Assembly (NCBI RefSeq): GCF_009914755.1
Contig: NC_060940.1
DNA: 64,000 nucleotides
Source: the human T2T-CHM13v2.0 reference genome, Homo sapiens
Direction: 5' to 3' (one strand)
Position 1 is the first letter of the stretch, and the number at the start of each line of letters is the position of its first letter. Below are positions 19,200 through 64,000 of the stretch, in pieces. Both the position numbers and the translations under genes were made by a program. Under the pieces are notes generated by a model. It searched no databases, was not told the origin of the DNA, and was given only the letters and a program-made list of their open reading frames with translations.

Positions 19200-19525
<326 letters not shown>

Positions 19526-19945
19526 GGATAATACATTTTTTTAATTGTATAGTATTTTACTAGTGGCATATGGTATGGTCAGAAATGCAGAGGCAGAACA
19601 GAGTGAGGGGGTCAGGAATTCACGGGGGGAAAAGCTACACATTTAAATAAACCTTAAAGTTTCTTGACACATACTGCCAAATGATCCTCCAGAAAGGGTA
19701 TACTAATTTTTATACCCAATAACCAGATCAGGGTATTTGCTTTTTTTTTTTTTCCACTTAGTTCAAAAAAACAAAACAAAACAAAAAAAGCTCAACCTTA
19801 CCAGTAATCAAATACGTTAAAACAATGAGGTCTCATTTGGCTCTTCAAATGGGCAGCCTAGATTTATTCTTCATGAATTGTCCATTTGTGTTCTTTGCCC
19901 ATTTATCTCTTTTTATTTTTGTTTACCACAATAATAACTACATAA

Positions 19946-20413
<468 letters not shown>

Positions 20414-21014
20414 GTTTCATTCATTTTTAAGAGCTCTTTATATATTAAGGATTTAGGACACACTGTCAATTCCATGTGCTCTAAACACCTTTTCACAGTT
20501 TGTCATATGCCTTAAAATTTTGTGATTAGTGACCAGCATGCACAATTTTTTTTAAGTAGACTACATCAATCTTTTCTATTACAATTTCTTCCCCACAAGG
20601 CTTAGGCCTAATATTCCTCACTGCCCTATATTCAGATCAATATTAACCTATATTTTCTTCTAGCTCTTTTGTGATTTTAGTTTTACTTTTACCTCTCCAA
20701 CTCACCTGGAATGGATGGTAACATATGCTATGAAAAATGGCTCTAACCTAATTTTTCCGCCATTTGGCTATCTAACTGTCCTACAACCATTTATTGCATA
20801 ATTTTATAATACGAGAGGCAGTGAAGTGCAGTGATAGAGATCACTGGTTTTGCTGTCAGTTACATCAGTGTCCAAGTCTGGCTGACTTTGAGCCTGTTAC
20901 TTAAACTCCCTGAGCTTCGGTTTCCTTCACTATAAAATGAACTATTAGTAATGTATTAGTAGTATCCAATTCATCTGGTTTTTATGAGGATTAAATAAGT
21001 TCATATAAAGTCTT

Positions 21015-21608
<594 letters not shown>

Positions 21609-22142
21609 TCAGCATAATGCTTGGCACTTAGAAGTTCTGAAGCGTTATGTGAGCTGTTACTCTGATTCCTCTCACTTAACATGAAATACAACCTTTACCA
21701 GACACATTTCTATTTGATTCCATCCCACTGAGTGATCTCTATATTTTCTAACCAGTTTTTCCCAGTATATGAGAAAGCTAATTATCTTTTAAAATGTTAC
21801 GTTGTAACTGAACTCCTTAATTAAATTTAAATGTGTCTTGGGCCACTAGGAAGACAGTAACATCTGGAAATAATTTTCTTTGTTTCTTTTTAACCATTAT
21901 TTGACTTTGGTTTGTCCATCCTGACCAGTTCAATAAGGTAGGAAAAAGAAATTAGCAAATTAGTATATTCCATAGTCTCCATTGTGTTCCCAGTTTCAGA
22001 ATGTTGCCTCTCATGATTCATCACTAAGTCTGAGGGTGTTGGCTGCCTGTTTCTTCATTGAGAAGTCAATGCATCCTCTTTCAAGCTTGAGTTTTCAAAA
22101 TTCTAAGCAGACTAGGAATAAGGGTAGAAAATTACCAAATGC

Positions 22143-22409
<267 letters not shown>

Positions 22410-22410
<1 letters not shown>

Positions 22411-22508
22411 CAAAGAAAGAAAAGAAAGAAAAGAAAAAAAAGAAAGAAACGAAAGAAAAGGAAAGGAAAGGGAGGAAGGAAAGAGGAAAGGAAGGAAAGG
22501 AAGGAAGG
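22410..22508 (+). repeat. (GAAA)n/(GGAA)n polypurine tract derived from the Alu tail
   Basis: ~100 bp almost pure A/G. Confidence 0.9.
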
Positions 22509-22547
22509 TGATCAAATGTATCTCTCACACACATACACACAGACAGA

Positions 22548-22866
22548 CAGCTGTCCCTTGCTATATCTCCCATAGATCCCGAAAATCTGAGGATAGTCAA
22601 GTCCCTGATATAAAACAGCATAATATGCACAACCTCCTGTATACTTTAAATCATCTTTTGATTACTTATAACACCTAATGCAATGTAAATGCTATATAAA
22701 TATTTGTTAAACTGTATCATTTAAGGAATAATGACAAGCAAAAAGGCTGTCGAGTCCACAGGTCCTTTACATGTTGAGTAAAGACCCAATTTTTTCCCCA
22801 AATATTTTTGATTTGCAGTTGCTGGAATCTACAAATGCAGAACGGGTGACTATGAAGGCCAACTAT
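22548..22866 (+). mobile_element. MER2 (Tigger-derived TcMar MITE)
   Basis: TCAAGTCCCTGATATAAAA, TATACTTTAAATCATCT...GATTACTTATAA.ACCTAAT.CAATGTAAATGCTAT. Confidence 0.85.
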
Positions 22867-23243
22867 ATTATGTTTTTCTTCTTGGCTCTACATACATGAT
22901 TATTTCAAGAGAAGACATTCTGATATTAAGCCCCTTCTTACATTTCCAGGATAAATCCTATGTGGTTATGATTCTTTTAAAATGCTAAATTCAATCTGTG
23001 ACTGTTTTATCTGGCATTTTTGCATCTCCACTCATGTCGGAACTCAATCTTCAGCTTTCTTTTTGTGTAACCTTTGTGATGGTGTTGGTTCCCAGAATTA
23101 TGCTAGCTTTGTCAAATCAACTGGGATGCTTTACCTCTTTTTCTATTCCCTGAAACAGTGTATTTAGCAGGCAATTATAGCATCCCTCTAAGTTTAAAAT
23201 AACTTATCCTTTAAACTTCTTGCATCCAGAGCCCTCCTCATAA

Positions 23244-23550
<307 letters not shown>

Positions 23551-24707
23551 AGAACTTTTTTTTTAATGCTCAGCTTCTTCCCCAGTTTCTGATTTAAAGT
23601 TTCAGACATCCAAGTCATTTCCCAACAGCCATGTCACTGGGATTTTCAAAGGTGTTGCATTTTAAGTTACTGTGTTTTACATTACAAAACAATTACTTCA
23701 AATGCAACTTACATTTGTTACACTTTTTCTATCATATCAATTCCTTTTTAGTTTTCTGTATTTGGGGTTTTCTCTTTTCTCTTTTCTTAATTAAACATGA
23801 TAGTGATTTGGTCTACTTCCTTGGCCTTTTTTCCCAAATAGCTTTTAGATTTATCAATTCAGTGTTTTTATCTGTTTTTCTAATTCATTAATATCACTTT
23901 TATCTTACAATTCTTTTCTCCAGCTGTCTTTAGGCTTGTTTTATGCTTTCCAAGTTTGAGTTGAATACTTAATTCATTTATTTTCATTTTCTTTAATAAT
24001 GTTTTAAAGCTACAAATGTGCCCCTGAATATAACTTTGGTAATAACCCATACATTTAGATATACAGAGTTCTCAATATTTCCTAATGATCCTGTAACAGT
24101 AACTTCATTTCCTCTTTGACCCAAGTGTGATTTAGGAGAATATTTTTAAATTTTCAAGTAACTGGATTTCATTAACATGTTTAAGTATTCTATGGAGGAT
24201 AAAAACATCTCTGAAAGGAGATGAAACTCTGGCAAATAAAAAAAAACCTTTTAAATAGAAAACACGACAATGTTAAAAGTGAAAAATGACTCATATAATG
24301 CTGTGATGGCCATATCTACAGACACTCCTTGTAGAAGGGATATAACCACCATTGGTCCTGGGGCACTGAGAGATCTGAGTGTAAGCAACACAAGGAGAGA
24401 GGGAAGAGGATGTTAAGTCTCTGTGCCTTCTGAAAATTTTATCTTGGGCATATGCTGCTTGCTTATTTCAGAAGCAAAGTCACCCCTCAATAAATGGAAT
24501 AAAACCATCCCAGATACACCATCTAAGTATATAACCAAGTAAACTTCCATATTTTTTTGATGAAATTTAGAGATGGCTTCAATTGAGTAAGACTTGGCCC
24601 CAAGATGATTACATCTGTGACTAAAGAAGGCAGGAGGGAAAAACAATAATCTCTAATTCTGCAATCTCCAAGTTCAGAAGAATTGAGAGCTACAAGAAAA
24701 ATAAAGT

Positions 24708-24713
24708 ATATAC

Positions 24714-24746
<33 letters not shown>

Positions 24747-24756
24747 TATATATATG
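24708..24756. repeat. (TG)n/(TA)n microsatellite
   Basis: Directly visible. Confidence 0.92.
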
Positions 24757-25538
24757 TTAAAAAGCTTAATGAGGTTCCAACTGGGCTATTTTGAAACCTA
24801 AATGTCAGGAACATGAAGCTGAGGCAGTACAGTAGCCAGTTCCCTGTATCTCCTTACGCAGCCTTTCCCATTTTACAATTACTACATCTTGTAGATCTTG
24901 CCTGCTACAGACCTTAAAACGCATTTCAATCCCAAATTAATTGAATTAACTTGTGCTTATAAGCATCATACCGTATCAACTCCCTTCCTTCCCACAAACT
25001 TTGTAGTGCCAAGTTAAAAAGAAAAGAAAAAAAAATGGACTCCATAAATCAGTTTTCCAATTTACGTTGAAGAAATCTGTTTCCTACTTTCTAATTTCTG
25101 CAACTGGGAAATTCTGTATATTATGTTACCATATAATGAAGGATGCCGGTAAACAGAAATCCACACGCCTGCACACACAACAGATTACATTGTATGTAAT
25201 TGCAAACACCACCAAGTTATGTACTCTTGGGAGCATTATTAGTGAGATGTGGTTATTTAATGCTTCATCTATTTAAAAAAAAAACTCATTCCATATGGAT
25301 GAAAAATGAGTATACTAGCCTGAATATGGGAAAAAAATAGAAAATGTAATCATATATTACTTAAAATCTATAACGTTTTATGCAAAGATAAGGTGTTAGT
25401 ACCAAACTTAGGCATTCAGAATGTCTCAAATACAATATCATGGGCTAATTGCTGGCTACCAAAACCTCCATCCCCCAGCAGCAGATGGCAGGGCCAGCCT
25501 TTTGTACTTTACTTGACCATTTAAGAAACTCACAAAGG

Positions 25539-25843
25539 GGCCAGTCATGGTGGCTCACACCTGTAATTCCAGCACTTTCAGAGGCCGACGCAGGCGAATC
25601 ACTTGAGGTCAGGAGTTCGAGACAAGCCTGACCAAAATGGCAAAACCCCGTCTCTAGTAAAAATAAAAAAATTAGCAGGGTGTGGTGGCGCACGCCTGTA
25701 ATCCCAGCTATTCAGGAGGCTGAGGCAGGAGAATCATTTGAACTCAGGAAGCAGAGGTTGCAGTGAGCCGAGATTGCATCACTGCACTCCAGCCTGGGTT
25801 ACAGAGCGAGACTCCCTCTCAAAGAAAAAAAAAAAAAAAAAAA
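25539..25843 (+). mobile_element. Alu (AluS-like)
   Basis: Full dimer; TSD-like AAACTCACAAAGG / AAACTCATAAAGG. Confidence 0.93.
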
Positions 25844-26594
25844 CTCATAAAGGTACACAGCACCTGGGGGCTTCCATTAGCATCAGAACACCCACGGAGG
25901 CACGCCCCATGGGAAGGTGGCACTCAGCTCCCACCACAGAGCAAGGCCCTTTAACAGCGAAGATGCTGCAGGGCACTGCTACTCGCCCTGCTGGGGAGAA
26001 GCCACCCAGCAGCCACCCTAGGAGCCTGGCACAGAATGCCCAGCTGTGGGGAAGGAAACTGTGCCACCTGCATCGCCCATGTGCCAAATGGAGTTCAAGA
26101 CTCTGCACCGTTCCCCATTCATCCCCACGAGAGGTTCAGCAGCCACTGCCGCTAAAACAAAAGACGGATGACAGGAAAACCCGCTGGCCTTTGGCCCATT
26201 CCCTAGCAAAGGGGAAGTGTAAAAGTGCAAAGGGGAAAGTGGGCCAGCTGCACTAATCCCTCTTTGTCCAGCAGTAATTAATAGTATAATCCACATTTCA
26301 GATGCATTAAAGCGAAAATGCTGCATTATCAGAGAGCCCGGCACACAGCCTCAGGGCAGAGCCTCCCTGCTGACCTGCAGAACCAGGTTACCTCATCTCA
26401 GCCTCCTCCTCTCAGGGGAGCTGACTCTAGACACCTCATAAAAGGACCGAGCTGGCAGCCAGAAGTCTCCACTCTGCCTGATGTGCTGTGTCTGTCTTCA
26501 GAAACCACCCACTCCAGAGCCAGTCCTTTGGGCACACGAGTTCTACTCCAGGAGACATTTACATCAAGTTCTACTCTCTGACCAACATTGAACA

Positions 26595-27230
<636 letters not shown>

Positions 27231-27260
27231 AACACTGCATATATTAATATCACAAGTCTG

Positions 27261-27537
27261 GGCTGGGCGTGGTGGCTCATACCTGTAATCCCAGTACTTT
27301 GGGAGGCCAAGGTGGGCAGATCACGAGGTCAAGAGATCGAGACCATCCTGGCCAACATGGTGAAACCCTGTCTCTACTAAAAATACAAAAATTAGCTGGG
27401 CTTGGTGGCGCTACTCAGGAGGCTGAGGCAGGAGAATCACTTGAACCTAGAGGCAGAGGTCGCAGTGCATGGATATCATGCCACTGCATTCCAGGCTAGT
27501 GACAGAGCAAGACTCAATCTCAAGGAAAAAAAAAAAA
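27261..27537 (+). mobile_element. Alu (AluSc-like, internal deletion)
   Basis: GATCACGAGGTCAAGAGATCGAGACCATCCTGGCCAAC; TSD-like ATCACAAG. Confidence 0.92.
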
Positions 27538-28075
27538 TCACAAGCCCCCCTGTGGATTCTTAAGCTTTAAGCTAACTCCCCTCCCCCCAAAATACTGGGA
27601 TAATAAATGCAACCAAAATTAAGATGCCCCTCCTCAACTCAATTCGGTGGGATACCTTTTTTTATCTTGGTGTTATTTGGGTATTCTGCACTAATTCTGG
27701 GGCACCAGGTAAGTTTCTATCGAGGGGTAGAAGCTGACTTCTGTCCCCGTCCCCCAAGACCAAAGAGGAAGCCTCTTCTGCCACCACTGAAATACTATCT
27801 TTAGAGGAAGGCATGCTATTAGCTCATCAAGCACAAAACACATTCGAGCTAAACATTACAGTCAAATGTCACAGCCACTTCAAAATAGAGGTACCCAAAA
27901 AGGCAGTCAGTCTTCTCAGCAGGGCTTTGAAACCACTGCCAACTGAGAACTTGATCTCAAGTCTTCCAACACCAAAACACCTGGTGGAATAGGTACAACT
28001 AACGGGCAGACAGCCTCAAACTCCATTCAGCTCCACAGCGCCTCTCCATGACCACTGCAGCTCAACCTCTGTGCT

Positions 28076-28789
28076 GGGAAGTGCATGCATAGGATGGAGC
28101 CATGTTTCTAGAACCATCAGAGACAAATTTTCTACTACAAGTGATACTGCACATGACAGTTTATTCCTTGGCTGGCCTCTGATAGTATGCATTTGAACCA
28201 TATGGAATCACCATTTTTTTATTAAATTAGAGCTGTTAAATAATAACATCATGGAGGAATGTGTTAGGTTCTGGGCAAGGATCTTAAATACACAGTTTTG
28301 GAACAAGTGTAGGGAGGGGCCCAAGCCCACGGCCGGTGCCCAACGGTGGCTACACACTACAGCAGCAACCGGCCTTCATCCTCCAAGTCCTCCTTGGAAT
28401 TTGGGTGAAACTACTTATATCTTAATCTAGGCAGCTGGAGATGAAGACAAAGACAAAAGAGAAGAGGAGAGAAAAGGAAAATAATTTGATAGAAGTATTT
28501 TCCATCCCAAATTTTGAGATCCTGGCACGAATGATATAATCTAGATACCCAACAACCTATACTTGTTCCAAAATCGTGCTGTTAAGATCCTTGCCCAGAA
28601 CCTAACACGTTCTTCCATGATGTTATTAACAACTCTAATTTAATCCAAAAATGGTGATTCCATATGGTTCAAATACATAGTATCAGAGGCCAGCCAAGGA
28701 ATGAATTGTCATTTGCAATATCTCTTGTAGCAGAAAATGTATCCATGCTGGTTCTAGAAACATAGCTCCATCCTATGCACACACTTCCC
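28076..28789. repeat. Long inverted repeat: arms 28076-28313 and 28556-28789, 242 bp spacer
   Basis: Hand alignment of the left arm to the reverse complement of the right arm: 27 substitutions and one 4-nt indel over ~234 bp (~88%), e.g. TTCCTTGGCTGGCCTCTGATA / TATCAGAGGCCAGCCAAGGAA and GTGTTAGGTTCTGGGCAAGGATCTTAA / TTAAGATCCTTGCCCAGAACCTAACAC. Confidence 0.97.
28140..28434 (-). other. Candidate cryptic terminal exon (acceptor in the hairpin loop, AATAAA at 28223-28218 and 28165-28160)
   Basis: Minus strand TTTTCCTTTTCTCTCCTCTTCTCTTTTGTCTTTGTCTTCATCTCCAG|CTGCC with ~85 nt AG-free upstream zone; three TGTA motifs then two AATAAA; no transcript evidence available. Confidence 0.35.
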
Positions 28790-29072
28790 CCAGGACTCCT
28801 GGACTGCCAAAGGCAGCCTATAAGCCATCAACTAGCAACTGGACATTTCATCTGGGCGCTCAGGAGGTACAGACCTACCAATCACGGGAGTGAAGGTACC
28901 CAGGCCAAGGGGCTGTACAAGAAGGGCAGAGAGGAGGCCACCATCCTGAACACATCACAGACTGCCCATCTGTGCCCTTCAAGTGACCTCTAAAGTGTGG
29001 TATCAATCTCCACTGAACCTTTGCTCTTATTCCCACAACACTTGGATTCTTTCTTTACAGGGACCCATGTGA

Positions 29073-29429
<357 letters not shown>

Positions 29430-30098
29430 TGACTCTTTGGGCCTCACCAAAATACAATTTCACAAAATAATGTCACATTATTTGGGGGAGGGGAGAGGCC
29501 ACCAAATTTCATCTCGAAGCCTCTTCCCTCATTTCCAAGGAAATAGGCATTGTTGGAACAGGTAAGGCTGTAATATTTGGTTTAGCTTTGCCCTCCTGAG
29601 CCACCTACCTCTAGAGGCACGTGGGGGTCTCTTTCTTTGCCAACTGCACCAATTCCTCCACAGGACCGTGCAGTAGCTGAATAACAACCCCCGAAGACGC
29701 CCACATCCTAATATCCGTAACCTACAAATATGTTACCTTCTACAGCAAAGGAAACTTTGCAGATGCGATCAAGTGAAGGATCTTTGGATAGAGGAGATGA
29801 TCGTGGATTATCCAGGGGGCCTGATGCAATCACAGGGGTCCTTACAACAGGGGCAAAGGAGAGGACAGAGTCAGGCAGAAGAAGGAGATGTAACAGAAGC
29901 ATGACACAGAGTGATGTGAGGAAGGGGCCATCAACCCAGAAATGTGGGGGCCTCCAGAACCTAGACCATGCAAGGAAATGGGTTCCTCCTCGAAACCGCT
30001 ACGAGAAACCAGCCCTGCCAACACCCTGACTTCAGCCTACTGAAACTGATTTCAGACTTCTAGGCTCCAGCTACAAGGCAATCAGTTTGCGGTTTTTT

Positions 30099-30607
<509 letters not shown>

Positions 30608-30836
30608 TATGTGGTAACTTCTTACGGCATCAAGAGGAAACTAGTATAGCCATCTGGAGAAAGGGGGACAGAACCACTGGACACACAGAAGCAGGGGTGT
30701 CCCTGAAGGGTTCACCCTACCAAGGGGTTCACACTACCCTCCTTCTCCAGACCCTAGGGACCAGCTGAAACCTCTCTTTCTCCATCACCAAAAATTAGGA
30801 CCAAAGGCCTCAGATGCTGTAATCAAGAGCTGTGTC

Positions 30837-31140
30837 TTTTTTTTCTTTTTTTTTTTTTTGAGATAGGGTCTCACTCTGTCTCTCAAGCTGGAGTGCAGTG
30901 GTGCAATCTCAACTCACTGTACCCTCTACCTCCCGGGCTGAAGTGATCCTCCCACCTCAGCCTCCTGAGTAGCTGGGACTACAGACGCCTACCACCGTGC
31001 ACAGCTAGCTTTTGTATTTCTTGTAGAGACAGGGTTTTGCTGTGTTGCCCAGGTTGGTCTCTAACTCCTGGGTTCAAGTGATCCACCCACTTCAGCCTCC
31101 ATAAGTGCTGGGATTACAGGCGTGAGCCACCACACCGGCC
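30837..31140 (-). mobile_element. Alu (AluJ-like)
   Basis: Reverse dimer; TSD-like GCTGTGTCTT / GCTATGTCTT. Confidence 0.92.
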
Positions 31141-32739
31141 ACGAGGGCTATGTCTTAGGAGAGGTGTTCAGTGGAGTATCTTAGCATTAGACAGAAAAAA
31201 CCTCCCATCCTGGCCTACCGCATTTGAGATTTATAAATATCCAAATTAACCAAGGAAACAACAGAAAAACAGTAGTTGGACAAAGAGTTTGTGTGTGCTA
31301 CATGTTTATTTTATCTAATAGGAGACACCGAACTAGAAACATCTACATTCAAGAAGAATCCCTGGATCCACAGTTCCTTTTATCAATTCACAAAAGCCAG
31401 GCCGAGCCAACCTTACCCAATATATTCCACAGGTGGGCCCGCCTGAAGCCTCGCTGTGATGCCAGGCAGCCAGCCTGAAGAACTGGAAAGCCAGGGCCCG
31501 TGCACGCTGGGCTCCTGAAGACAAAGGAAACAGAATGGCTCGGGAAGGCCGTGGCACCCTGCCCGCCTCCGTGGTAGCCTGGGGCCACTGGATCTTGCTG
31601 TCTCCGCAGCACCTGAGAGGTGTGAGCCAGGCAGCCAACCACATCAGAAGCTGGCTGCCGGCTGCCCCAATTGCACAACACCTCCAGGGGAGCCAGCTTT
31701 CCAGGACTGGGTTTTACACACCATAGGGGCACTGGCCATGTTGACCCAGTCAAGGCATGGCACCTTGAAGAATGGCCCACGCAAAGACCGGCCATATGGA
31801 CAGAAGGCATCCTGCCACAGAGCGATTTCTGAATCACCTCTATGCAAAGAATAGTCTTCTCTCTTACGCAAAGGAGATCCCATCACCACCATCTCATTTC
31901 TATCCCAGGCTCCTCCAGTTCTCTTTCAATCACAAGCCAGACTACCCAACCACTTAACTCTCTAGGCCCAGATATGACTTAATTCTCCCACTCCTGCATG
32001 TTTGTTGCCACTTCCCCATTTTGTGTTAACAATTAACCTGAAGTATTATGTTAACAATTAACATGAATTGTGTTTTGGTTTTTAAGGTCGGAGTAACTAG
32101 GATTACTCAATAGGATTTAAATGTTCAATTTTAGCACACATGTACAAGGCGCTACTTTGTACATGACAAGATGAAGTGGTTTAAAAAAAAAACAAAACAT
32201 AACCACCTTTCACAAAGGGTTCTCATTCAGCCTCCTGCTTGTGAAAGATACGACTTTGAATAGTGAAAGTCCCAAGAAGGGTAATTCAAGCAAAACTGGT
32301 TTCTAGTTTGCCTTGATTCAAATTCTTTATGCTACTTGACCCATTTCTCTTTTCCTCTTGCTTCTCCTGATGCCTCTCAAAATAATAATAAACCAACCCC
32401 AGAAATAGAATCCTGTCTTCCTTAGATGTCACCATATGACTAATTTATGGCCTTTGTTTAAAGCCCTTACACCAGAGTTGACTCCAGTAATTTCCTCCTC
32501 TTCTATTTGAATGTCCATTTACAGCCTCTCTGTAACCTCTGGGTGAACTGAGAATGTTCTCTGTGCCTCTCATGATGTGGATTCGCACCCTGGTGACAGC
32601 AGAGTGGCTCCGAGCAGAATCTCCCCATTACAGCTGAAGCCCACTGGGACCCTACCCAAGTTCACGTGTATATCCCAAGAGAGTTTGCTGAACACTCCTT
32701 ATGCCTTAATGCACCTTTGAAAAAAAAAAAGACTAAGGG

Positions 32740-33044
32740 GGCTGGGCGCAGTGGTTCATGCCTATAATCCCAGCACTTTGGGAGGCCAAGGTGGAAGGTT
32801 CACTTGAGCCCAAGATTTCAAGACCAGACTAGGCAATATGGCAAGACCTCATCTCTACAAAAATAAAAATAAATCAGCCAGGCGTGGGGGCATGTGCCTG
32901 TGGTTCCAGCTGCTTGGGGGTGCTGAGGCAGGAAGATCACCTCCCTCAGCCTTGGGAGGTTGAGGCTGCATGGAGCTGTGATTGTGCCACTGCAATCCAG
33001 ACTGAGCAACACTGCAAGACTCCCATCTCGAAAAAAAAAAAAAA
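32740..33044 (+). mobile_element. Alu (AluJ-like)
   Basis: Full dimer. Confidence 0.92.
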
Positions 33045-33755
33045 GGCAAAAAGATATCAAAGGCTGAGTGGGCAATTTGAATGTGTTCCCAAGACGTGAT
33101 GGGAATTTTCTACGTTTGGATTCAGGGGAGTGGGGTCTTAGTTTTGCTCTCATTCAGGGAGGTGGGTCCCAAAAAATATCCCCTGTTGGCCTTAGGAGGA
33201 GGAATACTTGAAAGGTATATCTGAAAATGCTCCAAGTTTTTTCCTGCCCCGCTTTCCAGTGGTGCCCTTCGCCAAGTCATGAAAACTCTGCCAACACTGT
33301 TCTCTCTCCAGCACTCACCTGGGCTCCCCACCAATGTCTTGGCTGCCGTCACGACTAAATAATGCCTTCTCTTCTTCCCCTCCACCCACCCCTCTCTGGT
33401 CTTTAGCACAACCTATCAGCTGACTTCTCCAACTCCAGGGAGCTAGACCACATAGTCCTCCACCAAGAGCTTTGCTAGCTTAGCACCCCACAGATAGAGC
33501 TCGTCCAGAGAATTGTCCAACCATCCATTAAAATATCCAAGTGGCCCCAGTGTGCCAGAGACTGCTCTCTCTGCACTAGGGCTAGGGGTAAGCAGCAAAC
33601 CAAACAGGCTAAGACCTCTGCCACCTGCATAGAGCCCATGCCTACTGTCTGACCCATCCCTACCTCTGCAGATGCTCCTTAATTCCCCACTTTTACTCTC
33701 TCCTCTTCAGAAAAGGATTTCCTCCTTTTGGATGAAAATTTGATTTTTTCGATGA

Positions 33756-34095
<340 letters not shown>

Positions 34096-34122
34096 TGATC
34101 TTATAAAATAAATTAACTCTAA

Positions 34123-34490
<368 letters not shown>

Positions 34491-63533: not shown

Positions 63534-63748
63534 CTGGCACACCAAGCCTCCGCGCACCTCCGGAGGGAGGCGGCACTTGCAGGTCCGGGGGCCGCGCCGC
63601 CATGCGCAACAACGGGAAATTCCAGTGGCACCCGAGCCCCGAGCTCACCCACCCCAGGCGGCATGCTCCCCACCTCCCGCTGGCCCCAGGACTCGGAGGT
63701 GGCTCTGGTCAGGAGCAGGGGGCCCGGAGACAGGGGAGGGGAGCTCAT
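63534..63748 (-). CDS. Upstream ATG/ORF in exon 1 (MSSPPLSPGPLLL...), open through the splice donor; uORF or N-terminal extension
   Basis: GCCGCCACCATGA context (63757-63745); 71 codons + 2 nt to the donor without a stop; translation unproven. Confidence 0.35.
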
Positions 63749-64000
63749 GGTGGCGGCAGGGCTGGCGGTCGGCCCGTCCCCGGAGGGAGGTCCCCGGGAC
63801 GCGGCGGGGATTCACCCACGGGGCGCGGCGCTGGCGTCCGGGTCCCCGGCCTGCCCGCCGCCGCCGCCTCCTCCTCTGCCGCCGCCCGCCCGGAATCGCT
63901 TTATGTAAATGAAGCCCAACTCGCAGTTTGCAGCGCGCACCGCCCGGGGAAGGGGGGCGGGCGGGGCGGGGGGCCTTCGGGGATCCACATTACACAGCAA
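63534..64000 (-). other. ZFHX3: First exon (5' leader) of the minus-strand host gene, probably ZFHX3; 5' boundary not determined
   Basis: Consensus donor GCCAG|GTGAGT at 63534/63533 inside the CpG island; gene name from recollection. Confidence 0.7.

What the first reader, a model, noticed from the sequence alone, without database searches (positions are those of the whole stretch)
28076..28789. Long non-Alu inverted repeat able to form a ~235 bp RNA stem in the intron
Arms of 238 and 234 bp around a 242 bp loop share ~88% identity and match no repeat family I recognise. There are no obvious short TIR/TSD ends. Of 27 substitutions, 11 become G-U wobbles in the minus (host-sense) RNA versus 6 in the plus RNA, and 10 are transversions. 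The mild bias favours a sense-strand stem but is not significant alone. Such a stem is a substrate for ADAR, possibly Drosha/Dicer, and for cruciform or inversion events. Its persistence could reflect selection or arm-to-arm gene conversion.
Basis: seen in the sequence. Interest (0 to 1): 0.85.

Follow-up and report, generated by a model that had tools for sequence, protein, structure and literature searches.

The report
Single-copy intronic inverted duplication in ZFHX3
A real 714-base inverted repeat in a ZFHX3 intron is most likely an old, one-off inverted duplication of unique DNA that is decaying neutrally, so it is one more ordinary predicted double-stranded RNA.

Summary
The arms are 28076-28313 and 28556-28789 with a 242-nt spacer. 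They share 207 identities and differ by 27 substitutions (17 transitions, 10 transversions) and one 4-nt indel.

Either strand folds into a ~235-bp stem. In the whole T2T genome each arm matches only itself and the other arm. The spacer and both flanks match only themselves. So this is not a MITE and not a pair of dispersed repeats.

The one link to a repeat is a 28-nt mid-arm piece. It resembles one terminal repeat of an ~80-nt mariner-type MITE family, probably a solo end that was duplicated with the rest.

Arm divergence (K2P 0.127) suggests a single inverted duplication roughly 30-65 Myr ago, using recalled substitution rates.

Nothing points to selection or gene conversion. The 11:6 G-U bias is not significant (p=0.33) and lies in the direction that transcription-associated mutation bias predicts. 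Identity runs are about what random decay gives by my estimate, and stem energies differ by 3% between strands.

It fits the catalogued class of non-repetitive predicted dsRNAs (PMC11838218). Cross-species alignment and editing data could not be checked. Interest is low.

The parts
28076..28313 (.). Left arm of the inverted repeat (238 nt)
   Evidence: In the whole genome it matches only itself and the right arm. A+C on the + strand is 0.466, opposite to the local strand asymmetry. This is a weak hint that it is the inverted copy.
28314..28555 (.). Spacer / loop (242 nt), single copy
   Evidence: Matches only itself in the genome. The two halves share only a weak 24-26-nt internal inverted match, 28398-28421/28488-28513.
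28556..28789 (.). Right arm of the inverted repeat (234 nt)
   Evidence: A+C on the + strand is 0.547, like the window mean of 0.537.
28193..28220 (+). 28-nt piece in the left arm that resembles one terminal inverted repeat of an ~80-nt mariner-type MITE family
   Evidence: Pattern search, family loci, and nhmmer profile hit with E 3.6e-5 at profile positions 8-35 of 85. The family was found starting from this same piece, so the E-value is not independent evidence.
28645..28672 (-). The same TIR-like piece in the right arm
   Evidence: nhmmer hit with E 1e-5 at profile positions 8-35 of 85.
28455..28481 (+). Uninterrupted 27-nt purine run inside a purine-rich stretch of the spacer (44 of 48 purines at 28437-28484)
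   Evidence: Any role as a replication-stalling site is my speculation.
27262..27538 (+). Alu-like element flanking on the left. With the one at 29088-29391 it forms an inverted pair that brackets the repeat.
   Evidence: Sequence read. Inverted match 27501-27535/29091-29125 (I3).
29088..29391 (-). Alu-like element flanking on the right
   Evidence: Sub-threshold Rfam Metazoa_SRP hits at 29103-29250 and 29269-29385 on the minus strand. The hub lists a masked stretch at 29071-29391.

Best explanation
A ~235-bp stretch of ordinary single-copy intronic DNA was copied once, in inverted orientation, about 240 bp from its source. That stretch already contained a short solo end of an old mariner-type MITE. 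The event was a local inverted duplication. By inference it arose through a replication template switch, fold-back synthesis or break repair, tens of millions of years ago in the primate lineage. Since then the two arms have drifted apart by ordinary neutral substitution to 11.5% mismatch. The element lies in a ZFHX3 intron and is transcribed on the minus strand. There the pre-mRNA should fold into a ~235-bp, ~88-92% paired hairpin. This is a plausible nuclear ADAR substrate that is discarded with the intron. Shown here: the structure, its uniqueness in the genome, the lack of transposon hallmarks, and the lack of any strand-specific or conversion signal. Inferred: the duplication mechanism, the date, which arm is the copy, and editing in vivo.
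For: (1) Each arm matches only itself and the other arm in the 3.1-Gb assembly. The first look found 2 candidates and both were scored. The spacer and both flanks match only themselves. (2) The search does see diverged copies. A 14-kb query gave 87,983 candidates, and the matches scored from 39 of them were 72-86% identical. A 101-nt MITE query returned 14 other loci at 79-93% over 40-72 nt. (3) A scan for the 28-mer shared by both arms, with up to 3 mismatches, found 6 places. Two are the arms, and the reversed control found 0. A family 6-10% diverged would keep 3 or fewer mismatches in 92-70% of its copies. (4) The 4 other places belong to an ~80-nt palindromic MITE. They resemble the arm over only 26-57 nt. 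Outside the seed, 35-283 of 300 shuffles score as well in the 8 comparisons. (5) There is no flank extension and no TSD. None of the 8 ORFs tested has a Pfam match, and there is no Rfam family in the repeat. (6) Substitutions look neutral: transitions to transversions 17:10, 2 of 27 in CpG context, K2P 0.1265, longest identity runs 28/27/22. (7) The two strands give nearly equal stems. (8) Template switching is a documented way to create reverse-complement copies and new hairpins in one event (PMC8794818, abstract and passages).
Against: No outgroup genome could be examined. The derived state, the date and the identity of the copied arm are therefore inferences. The composition hint gives a likelihood ratio of only about 3.3. 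The published template-switch events I saw are much shorter, with the largest pattern 59 bp. No junction microhomology can be read after 11.5% decay. The DNA search is weak for very old families: a MIR-like control returned only 4 other copies. An ancient low-copy family therefore cannot be excluded by search alone. Each arm does contain a 28-nt transposon-end-like piece. No expression, editing or dsRNA data were available.
Confidence: 0.75

Rival explanations
1. It is a relic of a non-autonomous DNA transposon with long terminal inverted repeats. The family is low-copy or very old, and the arms were kept alike by intra-element conversion.
For: The overall shape is arms plus an unrelated centre. 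Each arm holds a 28-nt match to a mariner-type terminal repeat, oriented inward as in an element. The age implied by 12.7% divergence overlaps the last DNA-transposon activity in primates (Hsmar1 active about 50-37 Myr ago, PMC8327481 passage). The DNA search is weak for ancient families.
Against: No other copy exists in the genome. The TIR-like piece sits mid-arm, with 117 nt of repeat outside it and 93 nt inside. It lacks the family's terminal bases and the other 57 profile positions. There is no TSD and no TA at the ends. No identity run is longer than I estimate for random decay.
Confidence: 0.07
2. It is a selected, primate-specific RNA hairpin in the ZFHX3 pre-mRNA. It could be an ADAR or Dicer substrate, or a regulator of splicing or transcription, with pairing maintained by selection on the sense strand.
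For: It is the best-paired inverted repeat of 100 nt or more within 3 kb in the window (15 pairs). There are 11 versus 6 G-U wobbles favouring the sense strand. The sense stem is 10 kcal/mol more stable. Its size, pairing and loop resemble edited non-repetitive dsRNAs.
Against: The bias has p=0.33 and is predicted by neutral strand asymmetry. The energy difference is 3%. There are 10 transversions and 6 A-C mismatches in the sense stem. No Rfam family is present. According to PMC11838218 Table 2, conserved dsRNAs are short (median 65 bp) and less paired (passage), unlike this one.
Confidence: 0.05
3. It is two independent insertions of the same dispersed repeat in opposite orientations, like an inverted Alu pair.
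For: This is the usual origin of long inverted repeats in human introns. The other 14 pairs in the window coincide with Alu-length masked stretches (and the hub table).
Against: Neither arm has any other relative in the genome. The arms also begin and end at exactly matching points.
Confidence: 0.02

Closest known systems
Non-repetitive predicted intramolecular dsRNAs of the human genome (dsRNAscan catalogue, Andrews & Bass preprint, PMC11838218)
   Same: It is an einverted-type inverted repeat in a pre-mRNA intron. Its length (~235 bp), pairing (88% Watson-Crick, 218 of 234-238 nt paired with G-U) and loop (242 nt) resemble the edited non-repetitive class. That class has medians of 144 bp, 87.5% and 509 nt (Table 1 passage). 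Its score would be far above their threshold of 75 (method section).
   Different: I could not check whether this locus is in their tables or browser, or whether it is edited. It is longer than their medians. It does not meet their 'long and highly paired' criterion of >300 bp and >96%.
Long inverted repeats (LIRs) of human introns, as defined for Lirex by Wang, Leung and colleagues (PMC5414712; FEBS J 2009 seen only as a reference-list title)
   Same: The stem is >30 bp, the mismatch rate is <15%, the spacer is <2 kb, and it lies in a long intron (criteria).
   Different: With 11.5% mismatch and a 242-nt spacer it is probably not recombinogenic by their measure. I did not compute their delta.
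Hairpins created by template-switch mutations (PMC8794818; PMC10710096 seen as a listing only)
   Same: A reverse-complement copy of nearby sequence creates a stem in one event. No transposon is involved.
   Different: The published events I saw are tens of bases, up to 59 bp. This arm is about 4 times longer and sits 242 nt from its source. The ancestral state was not reconstructed here.
Inverted Alu pairs (IRAlus)
   Same: Comparable arm length and pairing, an intronic location, and the expected fate as an ADAR substrate. Such pairs surround this element.
   Different: The arms are unique sequence and derive from each other, not from a dispersed family.
MADE1-type mariner MITEs and solo ITRs (PMC1784062 abstract; PMC8327481 passage)
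   Same: A 28-nt stretch in each arm matches one terminal repeat of an ~80-nt palindromic mariner-type family. Solo ITRs are common relics (5252 for Hsmar1).
   Different: Only 28 of ~236 nt per arm match. The family is not the source of the 235-bp arms. I could not name the family. No Rfam family hit the motif in 4 of its loci.

Membership tests
MITE / non-autonomous DNA transposon with long TIRs | Multiple dispersed copies in the genome | tested here: not met
   The arm queries find only the two arms. The 28-mer scan with up to 3 mismatches finds 4 other places, none alike beyond 26-57 nt.
MITE / non-autonomous DNA transposon with long TIRs | Target-site duplication flanking the ends | tested here: not met
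   The bases next to 28076 and 28789 share no direct repeat and there is no TA. Direct comparison of the flanks is at shuffle level, with 203 of 500 shuffles as good.
MITE / non-autonomous DNA transposon with long TIRs | Family-specific terminal motif at the very ends of the element | tested here: not met
   The only transposon-end-like piece lies mid-arm at 28193-28220 and 28645-28672, not at the ends.
Inverted pair of dispersed repeats (IRAlu-like) | Each arm is a member of an interspersed family | tested here: not met
   No Rfam SRP/Alu-type hit lies inside 28076-28789.
Long inverted repeat (Lirex definition) | Stem >30 bp, mismatch <15%, spacer <2 kb | tested here: met
   Arms are 234/238 nt, 27 of 234 aligned positions mismatch (11.5%), and the spacer is 242 nt. 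Criteria are from PMC5414712.
Non-repetitive dsRNA (dsRNAscan class) | Arms do not intersect annotated simple repeats, LTR, LINE, Alu or other SINE | tested here: inconclusive
   No RepeatMasker track was available. By genome search the arms are single copy. The only repeat-like piece is a 28-nt DNA-transposon end.
Edited dsRNA (ADAR substrate) | A-to-I sites on both arms in RNA-seq | not testable with these tools
   No editing database or RNA-seq was available.
Template-switch / fold-back inverted duplication | Outgroup species carry one arm only, and the second arm appears as a single insertion | not testable with these tools
   No other vertebrate genome is held.
Template-switch / fold-back inverted duplication | Arms closer to each other than to anything else, with sharp ends and no transposon hallmarks | tested here: met
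Known miRNA / structured RNA family | Match to an Rfam covariance model | tested here: not met
   cmscan at E<=1 over 27500-29400 gives 5 hits, all at 29103-29400 in the neighbouring Alu-like element.
Putative MDA5-type immunogenic dsRNA (criterion of PMC11838218) | >300 bp and >96% paired, and present in a mature transcript | tested here: not met
   About 235 bp, 88% Watson-Crick, and intronic by the hub's gene table. Criterion.

The most novel reading that the evidence does not exclude
The hairpin is a primate-born, single-event 'de novo' long dsRNA that has acquired a role in ZFHX3. It might act as a nuclear ADAR/dsRBP docking site or a small-RNA source that tunes processing of the intron following the exon at 63534-63910. 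If so, pairing on the sense strand would be under weak selection. It would also be the longest documented template-switch-born stem.
Probability: 0.05. Interest if true: 0.55.

Novelty: new member of a known kind. Interest (0 to 1): 0.2.

Why it matters
As it stands it matters little. It is one more long intronic inverted repeat in an intron that already holds many, and it is of a kind that whole-genome catalogues list by the hundred thousand. It has some value as a clean example. A ~235-bp stem was made from unique DNA in one step, it can be dated from its own arm divergence, and transposon history does not confound it. With primate alignments it could serve as a natural clock for how fast a long perfect dsRNA decays in a transcribed intron. 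It could also test whether strand-asymmetric mutation alone produces the G-U excess that is often read as selection.

Tried and rejected
1. Transposon or MITE origin was rejected. There are no other copies, no TSD and no terminal motif.

2. I followed the 4 extra hits of the 28-mer scan. They are copies of an ~80-nt palindromic mariner-type MITE. They match the arm only over one terminal repeat. None of the 4 has an inverted pair longer than 31 nt within the 1.2 kb around the match. This explains 28 nt per arm, not the repeat.

3. Extension of the repeat into the flanks was rejected.

4. A decayed larger palindrome running through the spacer finds only a 24-26-nt internal match.

5. A coding or transposase relic was rejected: 0 of 8 ORFs tested (8 of the 12 ORFs of 40 aa or more listed) hit Pfam at E<=0.1.

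6. A known RNA family was rejected: none in the repeat and none at the MITE motif in 4 loci.

7. I tried to decide which arm is the copy from strand composition. The result is only a weak hint that the right arm is resident, with a density ratio of 0.267/0.081.

8. Literature: a search for ZFHX3 + inverted repeat + intron gave 7 papers, none about this element judging by title and abstract start.

The Lobachev 2000 paper is not held, so what I say about spacer length and repeat stability is recalled. The family name of the MITE could not be established from the papers opened.

Full report
**Observation.** The inverted repeat is exactly as described. The repeat finder returns two collinear blocks, 28076-28239/28626-28789 (164 nt, 88%) and 28241-28313/28556-28628 (73 nt, 89%), split by one indel. 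A local alignment of the left side against the reverse complement of the right side gives arms 28076-28313 (238 nt) and 28556-28789 (234 nt) with a 242-nt spacer. There are 207 identities, 27 substitutions (17 transitions, 10 transversions) and one 4-nt gap. The wobble counts are 11 G-U in the minus-strand RNA and 6 in the plus-strand RNA. The minus-strand RNA of 28050-28820 folds at -436.3 kcal/mol against -213.9 +/- 8.3 for shuffles (z -26.7; 0 of 20 shuffles as good). The repeat ends sharply. For the 150-nt and 50-nt outer flanks, 284 and 440 of 500 shuffles score at least as well as the real pair. The bases next to the ends share no direct repeat.

**Is it a repeat family?** The window's own assembly (3.1 Gb, 24 contigs) could be searched.
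- The left arm matches only itself and the right arm at 87%. The first look found 2 candidates and both were scored.
- The right arm gives the mirror result at E<=10.
- The spacer, 536 nt of left flank and 296 nt of right flank each match only themselves.

I ran three sensitivity controls.
- A 14-kb query around the element gave 87,983 candidates. The matches scored from 39 of them were 72-86% identical, and all listed rows fall in Alu-length stretches.
- A 101-nt query from a MITE locus returned 14 other loci at 79-93% over 40-72 nt.
- A 221-nt piece that I recognise from memory as MIR-like returned only 4 other places.

So copies of roughly 80% identity or better would have been seen, but members of very old families mostly would not.

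I also scanned for the longest block identical in both arms (28 nt), allowing up to 3 mismatches. This found 6 places, of which 2 are the arms. The reversed-pattern control found 0. The i.i.d. chance expectation is 0.04. A family whose copies had diverged 6-10% would keep 3 or fewer mismatches in 92-70% of copies. A primate-age family therefore does not exist.

**The four extra hits.** They led to a side result. They and 13 further loci align as an ~80-nt palindromic element with mariner-like termini and two terminal repeats of roughly 33-37 nt around a short centre. This is the same architecture as MADE1 as described in the abstract of PMC1784062. I could not establish its name. Rfam shows nothing at the motif in 4 of its loci.

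A profile of the family (85 positions) hits the 64-kb window only at 28193-28220 (+) and 28645-28672 (-), and only with profile positions 8-35. That is one terminal repeat, without its first bases and without the other half. These E-values are not independent, since the family was found from this very piece.

Outside the seed the arm is unrelated to the four loci. In 8 comparisons, 35-283 of 300 shuffles score as well, and the direct alignments span 26-57 nt. None of those four loci has an inverted pair longer than 31 nt within 1.2 kb of the match.

The piece lies mid-arm, with 117 nt of repeat outside it and 93 nt inside. The simplest reading is a solo terminal repeat that already lay in the DNA when it was duplicated. 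Solo ends are common relics: 5252 for Hsmar1 according to a passage of PMC8327481. It explains 28 of about 236 nt per arm and nothing about the origin of the long repeat.

**What it is.** The arms are much closer to each other than to anything else, have matching sharp ends, carry no TSD or terminal motif, and lie in single-copy sequence. This makes a locus-specific inverted duplication the best explanation.

The mechanism is inferred. Candidates are a replication template switch, fold-back synthesis, or break repair copying the complementary strand about 240 nt away. Template switching is documented as a one-step source of reverse-complement copies and new hairpins (PMC8794818, abstract and passages). 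However, the events seen there reach only 59 bp, so this one would be about four times larger. No junction microhomology can be read after this much decay. A 27-nt pure purine run (28455-28481) in a purine-rich part of the spacer could have stalled a fork. That is speculation.

Which arm is the copy? The window has G+T above 0.5 on the minus (sense) strand in 8 of 8 bins. On the plus strand, A+C is 0.547 in the right arm, 0.570 in the spacer and 0.466 in the left arm, against a window mean of 0.537 (sd 0.046 for 234-nt windows). About 7% of windows are as low as the left arm. This favours the right arm as resident and the left as the inverted copy, but only about 3:1.

**Age.** The K2P distance between arms is 0.1265, and only 2 of 27 differences are in CpG context. 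With recalled neutral rates of 1.0-2.2e-9 per site per year, T = K/2mu gives about 63-29 Myr. This range falls within primate evolution. It is a prediction, not a result, because no other vertebrate genome was available.

**Selection or conversion?** I find no sign of either.
- The 11:6 wobble bias has binomial p=0.33.
- Its direction is what neutral transcription-associated asymmetry predicts. Mammalian introns show an excess of A->G over T->C on the non-template strand and a stationary excess of G and T (PMC2927911 passages). In a hairpin read on the sense strand, A->G turns A-U into G-U, while T->C gives A-C. The window shows that compositional asymmetry.
- Arm duplex energies are -346.8 (minus) and -336.5 (plus) kcal/mol, a 3% difference.
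- The longest helices with G-U allowed are 41 (minus) and 47 (plus).
- Identity runs of 28, 27 and 22 nt match my estimate of about 27 for the longest run under random 11.5% mismatch, so no conversion tract is visible.

Persistence needs no special explanation. From memory of Lobachev et al. 2000 (title seen; paper not held), inverted repeats are destabilising when nearly identical and separated by about 20 bp or less. This one has a 242-nt spacer and 88% identity.

**How it works now.** By the hub's gene table ZFHX3 is on the minus strand and the only exon in the window is 63534-63910. The element therefore lies about 35 kb into the following intron and is transcribed in the minus sense. The pre-mRNA should form a ~235-bp stem (218 of 234-238 nt paired by RNAduplex) with a 242-nt loop.

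There are 4,597 edited among about 497,000 non-repetitive predictions. This element fits that profile and exceeds their detection threshold by a wide margin. It is very probably already in that catalogue, which I could not check. It fails their criterion for MDA5-type ligands (>300 bp and >96% paired), and being intronic it should not reach the cytoplasm.

The intron is already rich in such structures. There are 15 inverted pairs of 100 nt or more within 3 kb in this window. This one is the best paired, and the other 14 fall on Alu-length masked stretches. An inverted Alu-like pair brackets it. No Rfam family and no Pfam domain (0 of 8 ORFs tested) is present.

**Comparison and novelty.** It works like an inverted Alu pair or any long intronic inverted repeat, and it meets the Lirex definition. 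It is not a member of any transposon family by the tests above. It is a new member of a known kind: non-repetitive, locus-specific long inverted repeats. I found no paper on this element. One search (ZFHX3 + inverted repeat + intron) gave 7 papers, none relevant by title or abstract start.

**Limits.** There was no cross-species alignment, repeat library, editing data, small-RNA data or population data.

**Verdict.** Interest is 0.2.

Noticed in passing
L008-L024 (17 loci of the own genome), e.g. L020 and L022 around position 400: A dispersed ~80-nt palindromic mariner-type MITE family, with termini beginning TTAGGTTG and ending CAACCTAA. Copies are 79-93% alike over 40-72 nt. It is not matched by any Rfam family at the motif in the 4 loci tested. 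I could not establish its name.
   Followed up: partly
window 27262-27538 (+) and 29088-29391 (-): Alu-like elements in opposite orientation bracket the repeat about 1.55 kb apart. The same RNA could form an outer Alu stem around the inner hairpin. A further Alu-like element in minus orientation ends near 27225.
   Followed up: no
window 1-64000: G+T on the minus strand is 0.515-0.549 in all 8 bins of 8 kb. This is the compositional signature of long-term transcription of ZFHX3 from the minus strand.
   Followed up: partly
window 28437-28484: A purine-rich tract (44 of 48 nt) with a 27-nt uninterrupted purine run sits in the spacer. It could in principle form a triplex. Any link to the duplication is speculation.
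   Followed up: no
window 19354-34372: Fourteen other inverted pairs of 100-175 nt and 76-85% complementarity lie within 3 kb of each other, all on Alu-length masked stretches. This part of the intron is dense in potential dsRNA.
   Followed up: no
window 29103-29400: Sub-threshold Rfam hits to Alu-derived miRNA families (mir-1268, mir-3135, mir-1972) and to Metazoa_SRP. All are below gathering score and lie within the neighbouring Alu-like element.
   Followed up: no
L017 and L018 (C12:114542148-114543011 and C12:114518765-114519613): Two copies of the MITE 23 kb apart, in opposite orientation, share their flanking sequence as well (output). This suggests a local inverted segmental duplication there.
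   Followed up: no
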